Below are positions 1 through 5,182 of a stretch of 5,182 nucleotides of DNA, piece after piece. How positions within the stretch are numbered: position 1 is the first letter of the stretch; every line of letters starts with the position of its first letter. The notes below the pieces were generated by a model, which saw only the letters and a list, made by a program, of their open reading frames with translations, was not told where the DNA came from and did not search any database. The position numbers and the translations under genes were made by a program. The DNA is taken from the IMG/VR virus record IMGVR_UViG_3300008807_000074, positions 1 through 5,182 of that record, one strand, 5' to 3'. Source of the DNA: a virus.

Positions 1-99
1 CGGCAAAACCTCATCAACATAGAACGGAATGAGATAGCCCGAATCAAAAGTAAGAAGATGACGCTGTTCAGCGGTAAATTTACTGCGCGGGATACGCGC
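1..99. repeat. Terminal direct repeat, copy 1 (identical to 5084..5182); overlap from a circular genome assembly
   Basis: Base-by-base comparison: cggcaaaacctcatcaacatagaacggaatgagatagcccgaatcaaaagtaagaagatgacgctgttcagcggtaaatttactgcgcgggatacgcgc occurs at 1..99 and again at 5084..5182, running to the window end. Offset is 5083 nt. Confidence 0.97.
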
Positions 100-158: not shown

Positions 159-467
159 CTATTTTGGATCATATTCGACGTGAATGTGATCAGACTCCAA
201 AACCACGTCAAAATCAGAGCCCAAGTAGCCTTTGATAACGTTGATTATTTCAGGAAGTCGCGCAGGTGGAATATTGCGAATGCGCAAATCAGCGGCGCGG
301 CCAGAATAATGAAGAGAGCCATCTGAATGAGCTCCGTCACAAACTGAAGTGAGAGTAAGTCCATAACCAAAAACCCTTTGGAATACATCGTGGATGGTAA
401 CCAGCCCCAGCACGAGCTGGGGCTGGATTTTTGAAATGTCTACGCCCTGTTTGAGAGCAAGAACCAT
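159..467 (-). CDS. Small zinc metallopeptidase of the LAS / peptidase M15 (D-Ala-D-Ala carboxypeptidase, VanY/phage endolysin-like) fold; putative peptidoglycan hydrolase (endolysin)
   Basis: ATG at 467..465, stop TAG at 161..159, 102 aa. It contains S-L-H-YSGRAA-D (H-x6-D) and D-H-I-H-V-E (H-x-H), the zinc-ligand signature of LAS/M15 peptidases. An SD-like AAGGGG lies about 5-6 nt upstream. There is no obvious N-terminal signal peptide (MVLALKQGVDISKIQ…). Its stop codon overlaps the VP1 SD. Confidence 0.8.
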   Translation of the reverse strand: MVLALKQGVDISKIQPQLVLGLVTIHDVFQRVFGYGLTLTSVCDGAHSDGSLHYSGRAADLRIRNIPPARLPEIINVIKGYLGSDFDVVLESDHIHVEYDPK

Positions 468-559
468 TACTGCCCCTTCTTCTTATGAGCGACGAGAAGG
501 AGGCCGATTGCGTTGAGGATGGTCATAATGCCATCCCAATTATCGACAAGAAACGACAT
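467..559 (-). CDS. 30-aa single-pass membrane peptide (candidate holin-like / membrane-lesion partner of the peptidase); not in the supplied ORF track as a separate ORF
   Basis: ATG at 559..557 is preceded by a strong SD (TAGGAGGGGACTCATG: GGAGG, about 6-nt spacer). My own translation is MSFLVDNWDGIMTILNAIGLLLVAHKKKGQ*. It has an acidic N-terminus, a roughly 17-residue hydrophobic core and a KKK C-terminus. Stop TAA (469..467) overlaps the peptidase ATG (467..465) as TAATG. The segment lies downstream of the VP5-like stop (572..570), so it is not overprinted on another gene. Confidence 0.6.
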   Translation of the reverse strand: MSFLVDNWDGIMTILNAIGLLLVAHKKKGQ

Positions 560-569
560 GAGTCCCCTC

Positions 570-884
570 CTACGCTGCGAATTGAGGCTGGACGGGAGCA
601 AGCTCTTTGAGCGAAGCAGCTTGAGCAACAAGCTTCGGGACATCGTAAGCAGTAACAATACCCGTGCGATGATCATACGAGCCTACCTCATACAGTGCGA
701 AATCGTTGGAATGAGTATTGAACATGTTGCCTTCGCGCGGAGTGTTCACCTCAACGGTAAAACCACGAATAGCCTCATTGGCATTGCGCTGAACAAAGGG
801 GGTATTAAAAGTGTCCCCTACTGCATCACGTACAACATAAAGAAAGTGTGTAGGGACATTAGAATTACTGGATTTATTAAACAT
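570..884 (-). CDS. Conserved gokushovirus small non-structural protein occupying the VP5 (ORF5) position; function unknown
   Basis: ATG at 884..882 with SD AGGAGA (CAGGAGACCTTATG). Stop is TAG at 572..570, 104 aa. The pattern Y-V-V-R-D…F-N-T-P-F…N-E-A-I-R-G-F…D-F-A-L-Y-E-V-G-S-Y-D…T-G resembles a small protein I recall downstream of VP4 in many gokushovirus genomes. Synteny (after VP4, before VP1) agrees. Confidence 0.75.
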   Translation of the reverse strand: MFNKSSNSNVPTHFLYVVRDAVGDTFNTPFVQRNANEAIRGFTVEVNTPREGNMFNTHSNDFALYEVGSYDHRTGIVTAYDVPKLVAQAASLKELAPVQPQFAA

Positions 885-2234: not shown

Positions 2235-2253
2235 AGGGGGCTAAGCCCCCTCC
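2233..2253 (-). promoter_or_regulatory. GC-rich 9-bp hairpin enclosing the VP3 stop codon and abutting/overlapping the 14-bp hairpin
   Basis: ggagggggc (2233..2241) pairs with gccccctcc (2245..2253). The loop is taa, or 8 bp with a 5-nt loop. The VP3 TAG is at 2243..2241. Bases 2233..2234 are shared with the neighbouring hairpin stem. Confidence 0.45.
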
Positions 2254-2801
2254 CCTCCCCCGGTTGTATCCTGCGCGGGAGACTGAATCACGACAGGCAG
2301 AGGAGTAACCACGGCGGGTTTCTCAAAAAGACCCATCTCAATAAGCTTTTCAGCATTTTTAGGGTCCATAATAAAGTCAACAAAAGCAATAGGGTTATTG
2401 CCGAATTGTGAACGAATACTTTCAGGAAGGTCAGCAAACTGCTGACGAGCTTGAACAGTAATATTCATGATCTCGTGGAACGATTGAGGCATATCAGAGA
2501 AGTCGCCTTGAACAGGCTGACGAGGATTGAGGAACATCGAAATATCCTGCCCTTTGGCATGGCGATCAATGATCCAATTAGGGTCAGACATATCAGTAAA
2601 CTCTTGACGGGTAAGCGAAGGCTCCACGTTAACAGTAGCCGTCAGGTCAGAAACGAAGGCTCCAAAGCCATCATAAGGAGTGCGGCAGAGCGGAAGCTGA
2701 ACAACATCATGTAGCTCCATATAATATTGAACGACATCAGGCGTACGATCATAAAGTTGCGCGATACGAAGGCATTCAGCAGAAAATTCAGTAGTAGACA
2801 T
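2241..2801 (-). CDS. VP3: Internal scaffolding protein VP3 (chlamydiaphage/gokushovirus scaffold family)
   Basis: The preferred start is ATG at 2801..2799 with SD AGGAG (AATAGGAGTTCTCTTATG), 13 nt after the VP2 stop. 186 aa, stop TAG at 2243..2241. The C-terminal half (GDFSDMPQSFHEIMNITVQARQQFADLPESIRSQFGNNPIAFVDFIMDPKNAEKLIEMGLF) matches the conserved VP3 scaffold motif (…F..LP..IR..F.N.P..F..F…) as I recognise it. The track's longer version (to 2933) overlaps VP2 and lacks an SD. Confidence 0.88.
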   Translation of the reverse strand: MSTTEFSAECLRIAQLYDRTPDVVQYYMELHDVVQLPLCRTPYDGFGAFVSDLTATVNVEPSLTRQEFTDMSDPNWIIDRHAKGQDISMFLNPRQPVQGDFSDMPQSFHEIMNITVQARQQFADLPESIRSQFGNNPIAFVDFIMDPKNAEKLIEMGLFEKPAVVTPLPVVIQSPAQDTTGGGEGA

Positions 2802-2814
2802 AAGAGAACTCCTA

Positions 2815-3489
2815 TTATTTAACAAATTTAACGACATTACGAACGGGAAGTTTTGCGGCTTTAGCCGCAGATACTGCAGATGCAGCAGAATGAGCAGCGC
2901 CGGAGGCCTGACCAAGGCCACCAAACAATGCATTCATTTTTTTACCGAAACCTACTGTCCAAGGATGTGATGCATTCCAATCAGCATCACTTTTTGCACC
3001 TAAAGTGTCTTGATTAATTTTAGCAGTAGAAGCGTTAGAAGTAGCGGCATCAGCCAATGCTTTGATACCAAGATTCCGATTAAGAATAATATCAGAATTA
3101 TTTTTAGCAGTTTGACTACGAATTTGATCATTTTGAGCCTGAAGATTGGCAACTTGAGCAGCATTCATTTTAGCAGCCATGGCAGTATGAACAGCAGACC
3201 CAACTGCGTTTTGCATAACGGCCTGCGCACCACTACCTGAAGATGCACCACCATTCGTATATGCAAGCATGGGATTAAGTCCAGCGGCTTTTAAATCAGC
3301 GACAGCGCGTTGATAGGCGGTACCGGTTTGATCAGCTTGAAAGGCGCGATTAGCGTCAGCCTCGGCAGAATTTGCATTATTAGTAAGGACACCACCAAGA
3401 AGATCAAGACCACCAGAGATAAGCGCGGAAGAACCGCCATCACCAAGAAGCGAAGAACCAATTTTAGCGATGCTTGAGAACAGACCCAT
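2815..3489 (-). CDS. VP2: Minor capsid / DNA pilot protein VP2
   Basis: The preferred start is ATG at 3489..3487 with SD GGAGGA (GTGGAGGATACCTATG). 224 aa, stop TAA at 2817..2815. It has a Gly/Ser/Ala-rich N-terminus (MGLFSSIAKIGSSLLG…) and the conserved AYQRAVADLKAAGLNPMLAY block typical of gokushovirus VP2. The position after VP1 agrees. Confidence 0.88.
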   Translation of the reverse strand: MGLFSSIAKIGSSLLGDGGSSALISGGLDLLGGVLTNNANSAEADANRAFQADQTGTAYQRAVADLKAAGLNPMLAYTNGGASSGSGAQAVMQNAVGSAVHTAMAAKMNAAQVANLQAQNDQIRSQTAKNNSDIILNRNLGIKALADAATSNASTAKINQDTLGAKSDADWNASHPWTVGFGKKMNALFGGLGQASGAAHSAASAVSAAKAAKLPVRNVVKFVK

Positions 3490-3586
3490 AGGTATCCTCC
3501 ACAATACGTTTTACATCACGATCAAATTGATCTTTTTTGATAAGACGAGCCTGTTGCTCGGGGGACAAATCTTTAAATTTGGACAT
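3464..3586 (-). CDS. Hypothetical 40-aa charged peptide between VP1 and VP2, overlapping the VP2 start by 26 nt
   Basis: My own translation is MSKFKDLSPEQQARLIKKDQFDRDVKRIVEDTYGSVLKHR* (ATG 3586..3584, TAA 3466..3464). An SD GGAG lies 7 nt upstream (GGAGCTATCCTATG). It fills an otherwise non-coding 154-nt VP1/VP2 spacer. I recognise no homology. Confidence 0.35.
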   Translation of the reverse strand: MSKFKDLSPEQQARLIKKDQFDRDVKRIVEDTYGSVLKHR

Positions 3587-3601
3587 AGGATAGCTCCATT
3601 T

Positions 3602-3633
3602 CCCCCATTGTTTCCCAAGAGAAACAACGGGGG
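3602..3633 (-). promoter_or_regulatory. 13-bp stem-loop 10 nt downstream of the VP1 stop (possible weak terminator, mRNA-stabilising or ssDNA structural element)
   Basis: cccccattgtttc (3602..3614) pairs with gaaacaacggggg (3621..3633) around a 6-nt loop. The single non-Watson-Crick position is A·C on the + strand but G·U(T) wobble on the - strand, so the stem is continuous only in coding-strand polarity. No U-tract follows it, so it is not a canonical intrinsic terminator. Confidence 0.45.
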
Positions 3634-3643
3634 CCATATAAGG

Positions 3644-5182
3644 TTAGAGACGAGATGAGATGCCCGGGACACTGTAGAGCGGCATTTGACGAGCCATAGT
3701 GACCGAGAACAAACAATCAGCGATAATCTGTTGACCATTGGCAGAAGCACCAACAGCAAGAACACGCGAATGCGGCGGCGTATCCTGAATAAACGTATCG
3801 TTGAGAGCCGGAAGCGAAGCGAATTTTTGAGCAAGATGCCAACCATCGATAGTACCGGCAGCAGTAGAGGTGAAGAGACCGGAGATACGGTTAGGCTTAA
3901 AGCGATATTCAGCCCATGCCTCTTGATATCCAAAAGTAAGGGTATCGTTAGCAGAACCATCGCAATAAATTTCATCATTGCGGACAGCTTTTTCACCCAG
4001 ATTAGCGAGCGCGGGGAAATAGAAGTCATAGCGCGTTAAACGAGTCCACATACGATGGAGACCTTGCTGATAGGTCAGGTCAGCGCGAACGGAACAAAGC
4101 CCAATAATATAACCATGCTCAGTGAAGGATTGCGAGAAGCCAATACCATGATCGACAATAGTACCAATACCCGAAAGGGTACCAAGCGGGGTAGAACCAC
4201 CGGTAACACCGGTTTGAGTGGTTTGAGCGATAGGATTGATATTAATAGGAACAGAGCCACCACCGAGATATTCGGGACGTTGGAGACGAGCGTCGGGTGA
4301 TGTAACACCGAAATGAGCCTTAGTGAGCTCAATGTAGCGAGTACCACCACGAGCATCTAATTCAAGAAGCTCTTGAATCATAATGGATTGACGAAGAACA
4401 TTGAGGGAAACGCCAGTAGAAGCAGACAAATCGGCGAAGAGAGGATTCCCAGTAGGAGCACCAGCATTAAGGAAAGCGCTGCCAGTAGTAAGGGTAGAAA
4501 TAGACATATTGCGCTGGCTACCAGCGCCATCACGAACAGTAACAGCAGTGCTAGGAGTAGAAATAGTAGCCACAGGAGCAGTACCAGCAAGCGGAATAGT
4601 TTGTGTAGAAGCACCTTTTTGCGGCCAAGGCAGACACGAGGTAAAATAGTCATGACGCTTACCGCGGCGGCGAAGAACATAGTTAGCGACAGTATCAGGG
4701 CCATCACCGATATCTATAGTAGGTGAATTTTGTAAGTTTTGATCGCGGAACCACTCTTTATAAATGAGATTGTAGGCACGAAGAGGAAGAGCACTAGCGG
4801 ATTTAGAGTTAGCGCCGCCCATTTGACCGACAGTGATCAGGCCGAAATAGTGTTGAAGAGAGCCGACAGCATAGCCACCGACGGGCGAAACCTGTTGAGG
4901 AATAGTATAAGCAATAGAATCACCGGGATTGTCTTGCTCGCCCATGAATTTTTTCCAGTTTGACCACACAAGGCGAGCCGGAACGAAGAAGTAGAATGTA
5001 TCGAAATAGAGGTTATCCAACAGCGGATAAATAGGCGTAGCCATACGGCCATAAACAGTATGACGAAGATTGTGGTTATCACCCGGCAAAACCTCATCAA
5101 CATAGAACGGAATGAGATAGCCCGAATCAAAAGTAAGAAGATGACGCTGTTCAGCGGTAAATTTACTGCGCGGGATACGCGC
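3644..5182 (-). CDS. VP1: Major capsid protein VP1 (Microviridae F/VP1 family), main body. The ORF is open to the window edge and continues through the repeat into 150..1
   Basis: This is the longest ORF. 5182-3644+1 = 1539 nt = 513 codons, in frame to the window end. The track start at 5089 is an internal TTG, not the real start. Stop is TAA at 3646..3644. Joined across the circular junction the gene is complement(join(3644..5083,1..150)), 529 aa, a size typical of gokushovirus VP1. Sequence character (…LPGDNHNLRHTVYGRMATPIYPLLDNLYFDTFYFFVP…) matches the capsid F/VP1 family as I recognise it. Confidence 0.93.
   Translation of the reverse strand, partial: ARIPRSKFTAEQRHLLTFDSGYLIPFYVDEVLPGDNHNLRHTVYGRMATPIYPLLDNLYFDTFYFFVPARLVWSNWKKFMGEQDNPGDSIAYTIPQQVSPVGGYAVGSLQHYFGLITVGQMGGANSKSASALPLRAYNLIYKEWFRDQNLQNSPTIDIGDGPDTVANYVLRRRGKRHDYFTSCLPWPQKGASTQTIPLAGTAPVATISTPSTAVTVRDGAGSQRNMSISTLTTGSAFLNAGAPTGNPLFADLSASTGVSLNVLRQSIMIQELLELDARGGTRYIELTKAHFGVTSPDARLQRPEYLGGGSVPININPIAQTTQTGVTGGSTPLGTLSGIGTIVDHGIGFSQSFTEHGYIIGLCSVRADLTYQQGLHRMWTRLTRYDFYFPALANLGEKAVRNDEIYCDGSANDTLTFGYQEAWAEYRFKPNRISGLFTSTAAGTIDGWHLAQKFASLPALNDTFIQDTPPHSRVLAVGASANGQQIIADCLFSVTMARQMPLYSVPGISSRL
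5084..5182. repeat. Terminal direct repeat, copy 2 (identical to 1..99)
   Basis: Exact 99/99 match to the window start. The repeat lies inside the capsid ORF and keeps its reading frame, as expected for a circular molecule linearised with redundancy. Confidence 0.97.

What the first reader, a model, noticed from the sequence alone, without database searches (positions are those of the whole stretch)
159..467. Minimal (102-aa) LAS/M15 zinc peptidase encoded by a microvirus: an enzymatic endolysin instead of a phiX-type single-gene lysis protein
The ORF carries the H-x6-D (SLHYSGRAAD) and H-x-H (DHIHVE) zinc-ligand motifs of the LAS/M15 peptidase fold. That fold includes D-Ala-D-Ala carboxypeptidases, VanY-like enzymes and phage L-Ala-D-Glu endopeptidases. 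Classical microviruses lyse through protein E, an MraY inhibitor, and carry no muralytic enzyme. The lysis mechanism of gokushovirus-like phages is largely unresolved. To my recollection, M15-type peptidase genes have been noted only sporadically in metagenomic Microviridae. At 102 aa this is close to the bare catalytic core, with no cell-wall-binding domain and no signal peptide. It sits in the variable VP5/VP1 junction, consistent with an acquired accessory gene.
Basis: partly seen in the sequence, partly recalled or inferred. Interest (0 to 1): 0.72.

Follow-up and report, generated by a model that had tools for sequence, protein, structure and literature searches.

The report
Microvirus mini zinc peptidase plus membrane peptide
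A small gokushovirus carries a 102-residue zinc peptidase of the cell-wall-cutting LAS fold, paired with a previously unnoticed 30-residue membrane peptide; this is probably a tiny two-gene lysis cassette, but peptidase "endolysins" in microviruses have been known since 2012.

Summary
A 102-aa ORF lies at 159-467 on the minus strand, with H-x6-D and H-x-H motifs, in a complete circular 5083-nt gokushovirus, between VP5 and VP1.

It is a real gene under purifying selection. It belongs to a large, unannotated family of ~100-aa proteins (4,571 clusters at E<=1e-10), and H47, H53, D60, H94, H96 and E98 are invariant in the 81 aligned members.

The AlphaFold model is confident (pLDDT 96.9) and has a LAS fold. 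The best solved relatives are Hedgehog N-terminal domains (profile E=7e-8, TM ~0.73). The protein scores below Pfam's Peptidase_M15_3 cutoff (14.8 vs 23.2 bits), so it is not the M15_3 family already reported in microviruses.

The idea of a microvirus peptidase acting as an endolysin is published (Roux 2012; Kirchberger 2022).

New here:
- A conserved 30-aa single-pass membrane peptide gene (467-559) whose stop overlaps the peptidase start. The pair forms a ~400-nt insertion seen in 10 related gokushoviruses and absent from 77 relatives.
- Analogous small membrane peptides flank the peptidase in two other microvirus lineages.
- A selected DNA/RNA hairpin lies inside the gene.

The endolysin role remains an inference. 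The membrane peptide also occurs without an adjacent peptidase in two contigs, one of them a near-complete genome with no peptidase at all.

The parts
159..467 (-). PEP: 102-aa LAS-fold (Hedgehog/DD-peptidase-like) zinc peptidase gene; stop TAG at 161-159
   Evidence: ORF; 130 homologues; invariant H47/H53/D60/H94/H96/E98; family profile vs PDB Hedgehog N-domain E=6.7e-8; AF2 pLDDT 96.9; Foldseek TM 0.70-0.75 to Hedgehog N-domains for most top-ranked hits, plus 1lbu and VldE; pN/pS 0.21-0.57
467..559 (-). TM30: 30-aa gene MSFLVDNWDGIMTILNAIGLLLVAHKKKGQ, with one hydrophobic segment and a basic C-terminal tail; candidate holin-like membrane partner
   Evidence: Sequence. Homologous peptide directly upstream of PEP in 9 other gokushovirus genomes or fragments. 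Invariant M1 L4 W8 T13 N16 G19 L20. pN/pS 0.27-0.68 in all 21 pairs with synonymous sites near saturation. No PHROG family.
566..572 (-). VP5 stop codon (TAG, 572-570) overlapping a GGAGG Shine-Dalgarno (570-566) placed 6 nt before the TM30 ATG
   Evidence: Read from the sequence: TAGGAGGGGACTCATG. SD-like motifs are present upstream of TM30 in most of the 7 genomes examined.
465..469 (-). TAATG: the TM30 stop codon overlaps the PEP start codon (probable translational coupling)
   Evidence: Overlap or a gap of at most 4 nt at this junction in all 7 genomes examined. Coupling itself is inferred.
401..426 (.). Perfect 11-bp GC-rich hairpin inside PEP (codons for QPQ..LGL); conserved structured element of unknown role
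   Evidence: found. Present in 6 of 7 clade members and in L197 and L198. At most 1 of 2,000 synonymous-codon randomisations reaches the observed stability in each of the 6. Not found as such in tailed-phage homologues.
148..161 (-). PEP stop / SD / VP1 start: TAGGAGTTTTTATG
   Evidence: VP1 then reads through position 1 and continues from 5083.
570..884 (-). VP5 (Phage_ORF5), upstream boundary of the cassette
   Evidence: Pfam PF20577 E=5.2e-22
3644..5083 (-). VP1 major capsid protein, main part; its first 150 nt lie at window 150-1. Downstream boundary of the cassette.
   Evidence: Phage_F E=1.9e-151; circular reconstruction
5084..5182 (.). Terminal direct repeat, identical to 1-99; an assembly signature of a circular genome
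   Evidence: Exact 99-nt repeat

Best explanation
The ORF encodes a minimal zinc-dependent peptidoglycan peptidase of the LAS (Hedgehog/DD-peptidase) fold. By homology with Sonic hedgehog, H53, D60 and H96 bind the zinc, and H47 and E91 act on the zinc-bound water. The protein has no export signal. It is made together with a 30-aa single-pass membrane peptide (TM30) encoded immediately upstream, whose stop codon overlaps the peptidase start. The proposed mechanism is a two-gene lysis cassette of about 400 nt. TM30 oligomerises in the inner membrane and makes a lesion, the cytoplasmic peptidase then reaches the murein and cuts its peptide stems or cross-links, and the cell bursts. A sub-clade of gokushoviruses captured the cassette by horizontal transfer. 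Shown: the fold, residue conservation, purifying selection on both genes, the insertion, and the gene linkage. Inferred: zinc binding, the murein substrate, the bond cut, hole formation by TM30, translational coupling, and the timing of action (exit rather than entry).
For: Enzyme: invariant H-x6-D and H-x-H plus H47 and E98, with E91 at least 90% conserved. The family profile aligns both motifs to the zinc ligands of Sonic hedgehog at E=6.7e-8. 44 of 81 members hit HH_signal and 17 of 81 hit Peptidase_M15_3. The AF2 model has pLDDT 96.9. Foldseek gives Hedgehog N-domains at mostly TM 0.70-0.75, then the VldE LD-endopeptidase and the Streptomyces Zn DD-peptidase 1lbu, and phage 'Peptidase M15A' proteins at TM up to 0.75. 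Extracytoplasmic target: family variants carry N-terminal signal or anchor sequences (P0155, P0137, P0076, P0082, P0245) or C-terminal TM anchors. Lysis context elsewhere: homologues lie directly next to GTA_holin_3TM holins (PHROG holin E=4e-26 and 2.5e-23). Five recognised holins and three small terminase subunits are among 99 small neighbours. TM, lipoprotein and coiled-coil neighbours flank the closest tailed-phage relatives. Cassette: TM30 has a Shine-Dalgarno site and a TAATG overlap with PEP and is under purifying selection. The order VP5-TM30-PEP-VP1 occurs in 10 genomes or fragments. Both genes are absent from 77 relatives, whose VP5-to-VP1 distance is about 400 nt shorter. Unrelated or undetectably related peptides of about 30 aa, with one TM segment and a basic tail, also flank the peptidase in two other microvirus lineages: L085, and L086/L170/L171/L172. 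Literature precedent for microvirus peptidases as lysis genes: PMC3394797, PMC9239249, PMC11499846.
Against: There are no activity data of any kind. TM30 matches no known holin family. Its hydrophobic stretch is short (about 14-17 residues, with D9 and N16 inside it), and no TM-prediction tool was available. TM30 also occurs without an adjacent peptidase, between VP1 and VP2, in L194 (a near-complete genome with no peptidase) and in fragment L200, so the pair is not obligate. Many tailed-phage homologues are not in lysis cassettes. They sit in tail modules (about 10 neighbours) or directly after giant polyvalent proteins (LPD38 in 9 of 28 large neighbours), which suggests entry-associated roles for part of the family. 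No spanin-like gene is evident for a Gram-negative outer membrane. One microvirus with the peptidase (L169) shows no adjacent TM peptide. The host is unknown.
Confidence: 0.55

Rival explanations
1. TM30 is the actual lysis effector: a single small membrane-active protein comparable in size to the single-gene lysis proteins of ssRNA phages. The peptidase is a dispensable accessory that speeds or completes wall breakdown, or TM30 has a role unrelated to the peptidase.
For: TM30 occurs without an adjacent peptidase in L194 (where none exists anywhere in the 4,300 nt held) and in L200. It is under purifying selection in its own right.
Against: In 10 of 12 occurrences it lies immediately upstream of the peptidase, with overlapping or nearly abutting stop and start codons. 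Small TM peptides recur beside the peptidase in other microvirus lineages. The 77 peptidase-less relatives have no such peptide.
Confidence: 0.2
2. The peptidase acts at entry rather than exit. It would be a virion-associated or co-injected murein hydrolase that opens the wall locally for DNA delivery, as tail-associated lysins do.
For: Many tailed-phage homologues lie in tail modules (DUF2460/minor-tail upstream, a 1,287-aa protein downstream), after an SLT-domain protein, or after LPD38/ART-PolyVal polyvalent proteins. A few family members are fused to the C-terminus of 746-1,075-aa proteins.
Against: Seventy-seven close relatives infect without it. A T=1 microvirus capsid has little spare room and a well-defined composition (established knowledge of the family). 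The gene is coupled to a membrane peptide rather than to VP2. Nothing links it to the virion.
Confidence: 0.1
3. It is a non-lytic wall-remodelling enzyme, for example a DD- or LD-carboxypeptidase that trims stem peptides. It would change host wall chemistry for superinfection exclusion, receptor masking, or conditioning of the cell for release by another route.
For: The LAS superfamily includes carboxypeptidases and dipeptidases (VanY, VanX) as well as endopeptidases (established knowledge). The bond specificity cannot be read from the sequence.
Against: There is no export signal, so the enzyme cannot reach the wall in an intact cell without a membrane lesion. Holin adjacency in tailed phages also argues against this.
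Confidence: 0.1
4. It is a catalytically dead LAS-fold binding protein, in the way the Hedgehog zinc site is often called a pseudo-active site.
For: The nearest solved relatives are Hedgehog ligands whose peptidase activity is disputed (PMC6027127).
Against: Every zinc-ligand and catalytic position is invariant or at least 90% conserved across 81 divergent members. Drosophila Hedgehog, the accepted non-catalytic case, has lost these residues.
Confidence: 0.03

Closest known systems
Peptidase M15_3 / M15A genes of Microviridae (Roux et al. 2012, PMC3394797; Kirchberger et al. 2022, PMC9239249; Occultatumvirinae, PMC11499846)
   Same: A LAS-superfamily peptidase gene acquired horizontally by a microvirus, related to (pro)phage genes, and proposed to act as an endolysin.
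   Different: It falls below the Pfam M15_3 threshold. It is structurally distant from annotated microvirus peptidases: Microvirus mar59 (167 aa) at TM 0.50 and mar50 (234 aa) at TM 0.58, against 0.92 to an unannotated Microviridae protein of its own family. It is shorter (102 aa). It sits at a different locus (VP5/VP1 rather than the VP1-VP4 positions described). It comes with a dedicated 30-aa membrane-peptide gene, which none of those papers describes.
Hedgehog N-terminal (signalling) domain and bacterial Hh/DD-peptidases (Roelink 2018, PMC6027127)
   Same: Best sequence and structure match among solved structures. It shares H-x6-D, H-x-H, the H135 equivalent (H47) and the E177 equivalent (E91, shifted by one residue).
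   Different: Identity is only about 25%. It aligns only to Shh residues ~84-155 and lacks the N-terminal third and the Ca2+-binding region. It is below the HH_signal gathering score (14.3 vs 22.1 bits). Bacterial Hh proteins are ~145-aa domains, more than 50% identical to Shh, at the C-terminus of larger proteins. This one is a free-standing 102-aa phage protein.
Streptomyces albus G Zn DD-peptidase (1lbu) and S. pneumoniae VldE LD-endopeptidase (9flk)
   Same: LAS fold and zinc site; bona fide murein peptidases recovered by Foldseek.
   Different: Weaker matches (TM 0.52-0.55, E 0.01-0.04), larger proteins or other domain contexts, and no sequence-level hit.
LAS-type phage endolysins (Listeria phage A500 Ply500, cited in PMC3394797; T5 L-alanoyl-D-glutamate peptidase, from my own knowledge)
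   Same: Small zinc LAS enzymes used with a holin for lysis. The S-x-H-x-x-G-x-A-x-D signature is present here (S51...D60).
   Different: No sequence hit to any of them in the PDB at E<=1. Those are larger than 130 aa or carry wall-binding domains.
Holin-endolysin cassettes of tailed phages (e.g. GTA_holin_3TM plus peptidase in L020 and L072)
   Same: A soluble, signal-less murein hydrolase gene abutting a small membrane-protein gene.
   Different: TM30 is only 30 aa with one short hydrophobic segment, which I believe is far smaller than characterised holins (own knowledge). It belongs to no known holin family. No spanin is evident.
phiX174 protein E (single-gene lysis, MraY inhibitor)
   Same: A microvirus lysis function involving a small membrane protein.
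   Different: E is 91 aa, is overprinted inside gene D, and works without any muralytic enzyme (and established knowledge). Here the small gene is free-standing in an intergenic insertion and is coupled to an enzyme.

Membership tests
LAS / Hedgehog-DD-peptidase superfamily (Pfam clan Peptidase_MD) | H-x(3-6)-D zinc-ligand motif | tested here: met
   H53-x6-D60, invariant in 81 of 81 members; aligned to the Shh zinc ligands
LAS / Hedgehog-DD-peptidase superfamily (Pfam clan Peptidase_MD) | H-x-H motif supplying the third ligand | tested here: met
   H94-I-H96, invariant; aligned to Shh HIH
LAS / Hedgehog-DD-peptidase superfamily (Pfam clan Peptidase_MD) | Catalytic acid/base near the metal (Shh E177 and H135 equivalents) | tested here: met
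   H47 is invariant and aligned to the second His of Shh 'GHH'. E91 is at least 90% conserved, one residue out of register with Shh E177 (residue roles from PMC6027127).
LAS / Hedgehog-DD-peptidase superfamily (Pfam clan Peptidase_MD) | The fold | tested here: met
   AF2 pLDDT 96.9, pTM 0.88. Foldseek probability 1.00 and mostly TM 0.70-0.75 to Hedgehog N-domains, plus hits to 1lbu and VldE and to phage M15A proteins at TM up to 0.75.
LAS / Hedgehog-DD-peptidase superfamily (Pfam clan Peptidase_MD) | Zinc binding and peptide-bond hydrolysis; three-dimensional clustering of the ligands | not testable with these tools
Pfam Peptidase_M15_3 (PF08291), the family reported in Microviridae in 2012 | Score at or above the gathering threshold (23.2 bits) | tested here: not met
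   14.8 bits, E=0.033, matching only profile positions 61-107. Only 17 of 81 family members reach E<=0.01.
Pfam HH_signal (PF01085), Hedgehog signalling domain | Score at or above the gathering threshold (22.1 bits) and full-length domain of about 160 positions | tested here: not met
   14.3 bits over 23 residues. The family profile covers only Shh ~84-155. 44 of 81 members reach E<=0.01.
Holin-endolysin lysis cassette | Muralytic enzyme gene adjacent to and co-oriented with a small membrane-protein gene | tested here: met
   TM30 at 467-559 with a TAATG overlap onto PEP; conserved in 10 genomes or fragments
Holin-endolysin lysis cassette | Partner has at least one TM domain and a charged C-terminus, and belongs to a recognised holin family | tested here: inconclusive
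   Hydropathy maximum 1.8-2.2 over 15 residues and a KKK/RK tail. No PHROG match at E<=10 for most members. hhalign to the 58-aa TM partner of tailed-phage homologues gives probability 31%, P=5e-4. No TM predictor was available.
Holin-endolysin lysis cassette | Obligate pairing of the two genes | tested here: not met
   TM30 occurs without an adjacent peptidase in L194 and L200. The peptidase occurs without an obvious TM neighbour in L169.
Holin-endolysin lysis cassette | Lethal membrane-hole formation and lysis on co-expression | not testable with these tools
   Requires experiment.
phiX174 E-type single-gene lysis (amurin) | Overprinted gene embedded in another reading frame; no muralytic enzyme | tested here: not met
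   TM30 lies in the VP5-PEP gap. Its conserved part cannot extend upstream (a stop lies 5 codons upstream in L006). It is followed by an enzyme gene.

The most novel reading that the evidence does not exclude
TM30 plus PEP is a self-contained, horizontally mobile holin-endolysin system of only about 400 nt. It would pair a 30-residue single-pass membrane peptide (by far the smallest holin) with a 102-residue Hedgehog-like zinc peptidase (among the smallest endolysins), and it would have been captured more than once by microviruses. It would then be the first two-component lysis system described in Microviridae and a direct handle on how at least some gokushoviruses lyse their hosts. The conserved hairpin inside the peptidase gene would be an additional cis-acting element of this cassette.
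Probability: 0.35. Interest if true: 0.68.

Novelty: new variant of a known kind. Interest (0 to 1): 0.45.

Why it matters
How gokushoviruses, the most abundant microviruses in nature, lyse their hosts is not known. Peptidase genes have been proposed as the answer for some lineages, but no partner that would let a signal-less enzyme cross the inner membrane has been described.

This locus offers a compact, directly testable candidate: 400 nt, two genes, easily synthesised and expressed.

It also exposes a large "dark" family. About 4,600 clusters of ~100-aa LAS proteins have no Pfam, PHROG or NCBIfam model, and they are labelled "hypothetical" or left uncalled in at least 14 GenBank microvirus records. 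Their nearest characterised relative is the animal Hedgehog ligand, which bears on the proposed bacterial or phage origin of the Hedge domain.

A very small, single-domain, Gram-negative-phage peptidase could also interest enzybiotic work.

If the enzyme proves inactive or entry-related, the finding reduces to one more accessory peptidase gene in a metagenomic microvirus.

Tried and rejected
1. Single-sequence profile searches gave only sub-threshold Pfam hits and nothing in PHROGs or NCBIfam. A family profile was needed.

2. I tested homology between TM30 and the 58-aa TM protein (phrog_9685) that follows the peptidase in about 10 tailed-phage loci. An HMM of TM30 finds nothing outside the gokushovirus clade at E<=10. 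hhalign gives probability 31%. I treat them as analogous, not shown to be homologous. The same applies to the small TM peptides of L085, L086 and L170-172.

3. Weak PEP-HMM hits (E about 0.03) in many peptidase-less relatives turned out to be the VP4 Rep motif FITLTYD...GSLHY, a chance match.

4. A bootstrapped NJ tree of 92 peptidases has no resolution. The microviral copies are not monophyletic, but independent acquisitions are not proven.

5. Sigma-70 promoter and intrinsic-terminator scans gave counts no higher than shuffled controls.

6. Host identification failed. Only whole-virus contigs binned into freshwater MAGs (Chlorobiaceae, Bacteroidota, Burkholderiaceae) turned up. Integrated relatives have VP1 identity of 43% or less.

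7. A nucleotide search of GenBank phages found no match over the cassette.

8. The base composition of the cassette (GC 0.46-0.47) does not differ from the genome (0.46), so there is no compositional trace of transfer.

9. A search for TM30-like intergenic peptides in 77 peptidase-less relatives found none.

10. The search for homologous proteins refuses queries under 40 aa, so TM30 could not be searched in the 5.8-billion-protein set.
Full report
**1. What is in the window**

The window is a complete gokushovirus-type microvirus. All recognisable genes are on the minus strand:
- VP1 capsid (Phage_F, E=1.9e-151)
- a 57-aa ORF
- VP2 pilot protein (PHROG pilot families, E down to 1e-25)
- VP3 scaffold (Chlamy_scaf, 6e-28)
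- VP4 replication initiator (REP_ORF2-G2P, 7e-20; phrog_942, 2e-109)
- VP5 (Phage_ORF5, 5e-22)

The first and last 99 nt are identical, so the genome is a 5083-nt circle. VP1 starts at the ATG at 150-148, 8 nt after the stop of the ORF in question (TAGGAGTTTTTATG), and reads across the contig ends.

**2.

SLHYSGRAAD gives H53-x6-D60 and DHIHVE gives H94-x-H96. The ORF has 130 homologues at E<=1e-3 in the word-indexed search, nearly all about 100 aa and unannotated. The exhaustive HMM search finds 6,242 representative clusters at E<=1e-3 and 4,571 at E<=1e-10.

In an 81-sequence alignment (38-58% identity to the query), T40, H47, H53, D60, V88, H94, H96 and E98 are invariant. S51, G56, A58 and E91 are at least 90% conserved. 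Among the gokushovirus copies pN/pS is 0.21-0.57. It is a real, constrained gene.

**3. Which family**

On its own the protein is sub-threshold for everything: Peptidase_M15_3 14.8 bits (cutoff 23.2), HH_signal 14.3 bits (cutoff 22.1), and no PHROG or NCBIfam hit.

The family profile hits only Hedgehog N-terminal domains in the PDB (E=6.7e-8 over 70 positions). Both motifs are aligned to the Shh zinc ligands, and H47 is aligned to the second His of the Shh "GHH". Of the 81 members, 44 match HH_signal and 17 match Peptidase_M15_3 at E<=0.01.

The AlphaFold2 model is very confident (pLDDT 96.9, pTM 0.88) and is a single compact alpha/beta domain. Foldseek against the PDB returns Hedgehog N-domains (mostly TM 0.70-0.75, probability 1.00). 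Two genuine murein peptidases follow: VldE (9flk) and the Streptomyces Zn DD-peptidase (1lbu).

Against predicted viral structures:
- The best hit is a Microviridae protein that an automated pipeline named "Sonic hedgehog protein..." (TM 0.92, rmsd 1.1).
- Next is a Salinibacter phage protein (0.82).
- Phage "Peptidase M15A" proteins reach 0.75.
- The annotated microvirus peptidases mar59 and mar50 score only 0.50 and 0.58.

Roelink (PMC6027127) defines the Hh/DD-peptidase motif as H-x6-D, H-x-H plus E177. All three elements are present here, E91 being one residue out of register.

My conclusion is that it is a member of the LAS / Hedgehog-DD-peptidase superfamily. It belongs to a distinct, unmodelled ~100-aa subfamily. 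It is not a member of Pfam M15_3 as defined, and it is not a Hedgehog signalling domain.

**4. Where the enzyme acts**

The protein has no export signal. However, some family members carry N-terminal signal or anchor sequences (for example P0155, MVRKLIVAALLLVALSSEAS) or C-terminal TM anchors. That places the catalytic domain outside the cytoplasm in those cases, which fits a cell-wall substrate.

**5.

The 102-nt gap between VP5 and the peptidase holds a 30-aa ORF (559 to 467): MSFLVDNWDGIMTILNAIGLLLVAHKKKGQ. A GGAGG site overlaps the VP5 stop, and the ORF's own stop overlaps the peptidase start (TAATG).

Homologous peptides occupy the same position in nine other gokushovirus genomes or fragments: L001, L005-L008, L016, L197, L198 and L199. 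M1, L4, W8, T13, N16, G19 and L20 are invariant. All 21 pairwise pN/pS values are 0.27-0.68 while synonymous sites are near saturation. The stop/start junction with the peptidase overlaps or is at most 4 nt apart in all seven genomes examined.

Gene callers did not call this ORF, and no PHROG family matches it. Its one hydrophobic segment, conserved polar Thr/Asn/Gly face and basic tail are what one expects of a small oligomerising membrane peptide. That last point is inference.

**6. The pair is a clade-specific insertion**

I examined 84 gokushoviruses related to the window (VP1 61-80% identical). Seven carry both genes. The other 77 carry neither, and their VP5-to-VP1 distance is about 400 nt shorter (150-300 nt against 567-593 nt). 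Those relatives also show no TM30-like intergenic peptide.

Searching IMG/VR and the JGI metagenomes with TM30 alone recovered the same cassette-bearing viruses plus two exceptions:
- L194 is a near-complete genome in which a clear TM30 homologue sits between VP1 and VP2, with no peptidase anywhere.
- L200 is a fragment with the same arrangement.

So the linkage is strong (10 of 12 occurrences) but not obligate.

**7. Recurrence in other microviruses**

Fourteen GenBank Microviridae records encode family members (33-47% identity). All are labelled "hypothetical protein" or are not annotated at all. They sit at other loci: between VP1 and VP2 in a Ciona microvirus, and between VP2 and VP4 in ~6-kb human-associated microviruses.

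In those lineages the peptidase is followed by a different small peptide with one TM segment and a basic tail (...NIVTFLLGLFINPKKR...; pN/pS 0.43-0.80 for divergent pairs). In L085 the following peptide carries an NWD.I motif. A cattle virus (L169) shows none. A tree of the peptidases is unresolved, but the microviral copies are not monophyletic.

**8. Contexts outside microviruses are mixed**

Most homologues are in tailed phages or prophages.
- Some are in lysis-type settings. Two lie directly beside GTA_holin_3TM holins. Five recognised holins and three small terminase subunits are among 99 small neighbours. Lipoprotein, TM and coiled-coil neighbours flank the closest tailed-phage relatives.
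- Others are in tail modules (DUF2460/minor-tail upstream, a 1,287-aa protein downstream).
- Others lie directly after giant polyvalent proteins (LPD38 in 9 of 28 large neighbours, ART-PolyVal in 3, SLT in 1), followed by a conserved 58-aa TM protein.

The family is therefore used both for exit and, probably, for entry. This keeps an entry role alive as a rival explanation for the microvirus copy.

**9. Mechanism proposed**

I propose, at confidence 0.55, a two-gene lysis cassette. TM30 would permeabilise the inner membrane, and the signal-less zinc peptidase would then reach and cleave murein peptides.
- Shown: the fold, residue conservation, selection on both genes, the insertion, and the linkage.
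- Inferred: metal binding, the substrate, the bond specificity, hole formation, translational coupling, and timing.
- Rivals: TM30 as the primary effector with the enzyme as an accessory (0.2); an entry-associated lysin (0.1); non-lytic wall remodelling (0.1); a dead enzyme (0.03).

**10. Novelty**

The general claim is published. Roux et al. 2012 found M15_3 peptidases in 11 Microviridae genomes and proposed them as horizontally acquired endolysins. Kirchberger et al. 2022 list peptidases among the few microvirus accessory genes and link them to lysis. Zhang et al. 2024 find them in most Occultatumvirinae.

I found no paper that links microviruses with a Hedgehog-like peptidase. Among the top-ranked papers that mention both Microviridae and holin, none that I read describes a microviral holin-like partner.

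What is new is the subfamily, the membrane-peptide partner and the cassette architecture, so I rate it a new variant of a known kind. Interest is moderate at 0.45: testable and tidy, but not surprising in principle.

**11. Side observation**

A perfect 11-bp GC-rich hairpin (401-426) lies inside the peptidase gene over the codons for QPQ..LGL. It is present in 6 of the 7 clade genomes and in two further fragments. In each of the six it is far more stable than synonymous-codon randomisations (at most 1 of 2,000 reaches the observed energy). It is the third most stable 60-nt stretch of the genome, and it is absent as such from tailed-phage homologues. Its role is unknown. Candidates are a single-stranded DNA signal, an mRNA element, or an antisense terminator.

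Noticed in passing
window 401-426 (inside the peptidase gene): Perfect 11-bp, 9-GC hairpin encoded by the codons for QPQ..LGL. It is conserved in 8 of the 9 gokushovirus copies that were folded (L199 was not folded) despite saturated synonymous sites, and it is far more stable than synonymous-codon controls (p<=0.001 in each of 6). A run of T follows it on the + (antisense) strand. Function unknown.
   Followed up: partly
window 1-99 and 5084-5182: Exact 99-nt terminal direct repeat, so the contig is a circular 5083-nt genome. The 'TTG start' of VP1 at 5089 is an artefact: the real VP1 starts at 150-148 and wraps across the ends, giving about 529 aa.
   Followed up: yes
L194 1217-1303; L200 29-112: Homologues of the 30-aa membrane peptide located between VP1 and VP2 with no adjacent peptidase. 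L194 is a near-complete genome that has no peptidase at all. This suggests the peptide has a function of its own.
   Followed up: partly
L086 4529-4633; L170 5745-5840; L171 4654-4830; L172 4553-4729: A second family of small peptides with one TM segment and a basic tail (...NIVTFLLGLFINPKKR...) lies just downstream of the peptidase in ~6-kb human-associated microviruses. In PV0679xx records neither the peptidase nor this peptide is annotated.
   Followed up: partly
L023-L026, L031, L051, L053, L059, L062, L081 (around 7000 in each locus): In tailed phages the peptidase often follows, with overlapping stop and start, a giant (700 to over 2,300 aa) polyvalent protein carrying LPD38 or ART-PolyVal domains. 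It is followed by a conserved 58-aa TM protein (phrog_9685, unknown function). This may be an injected-effector or entry module.
   Followed up: partly
window about 1947-2292 (VP3 end and VP3-VP4 intergenic region): This roughly 290-nt non-coding stretch, together with the end of VP3, holds the most stable predicted single-strand structures of the genome: 60-nt windows of -18 to -23 kcal/mol against a genome mean of -4.8. It is a candidate origin or terminator region.
   Followed up: no
window 3464-3637 (minus strand): A 57-aa ORF between VP1 and VP2 (MAPVVSLGKQWGKWSYPMSKFKDLSPEQQARL...) has no Pfam or PHROG match. L194 has an unrelated 55-aa ORF at the same position.
   Followed up: no
BFVD entry A0A8S5SY19 (Microviridae sp. 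ctoGr7): A family member in a public microvirus genome carries the automated name 'Sonic hedgehog protein, Cell adhesion Protein-Protein Complex...'. The name was evidently copied from a structure-database hit. It is misleading as a product name but records the same Hedgehog resemblance.
   Followed up: no
window 2241-2933 vs 2815-3504 (minus strand): The listed VP3 ORF (230 aa) overlaps VP2 by about 120 nt, and its Pfam match begins only at residue 102. The true VP3 start is probably an internal ATG.
   Followed up: no
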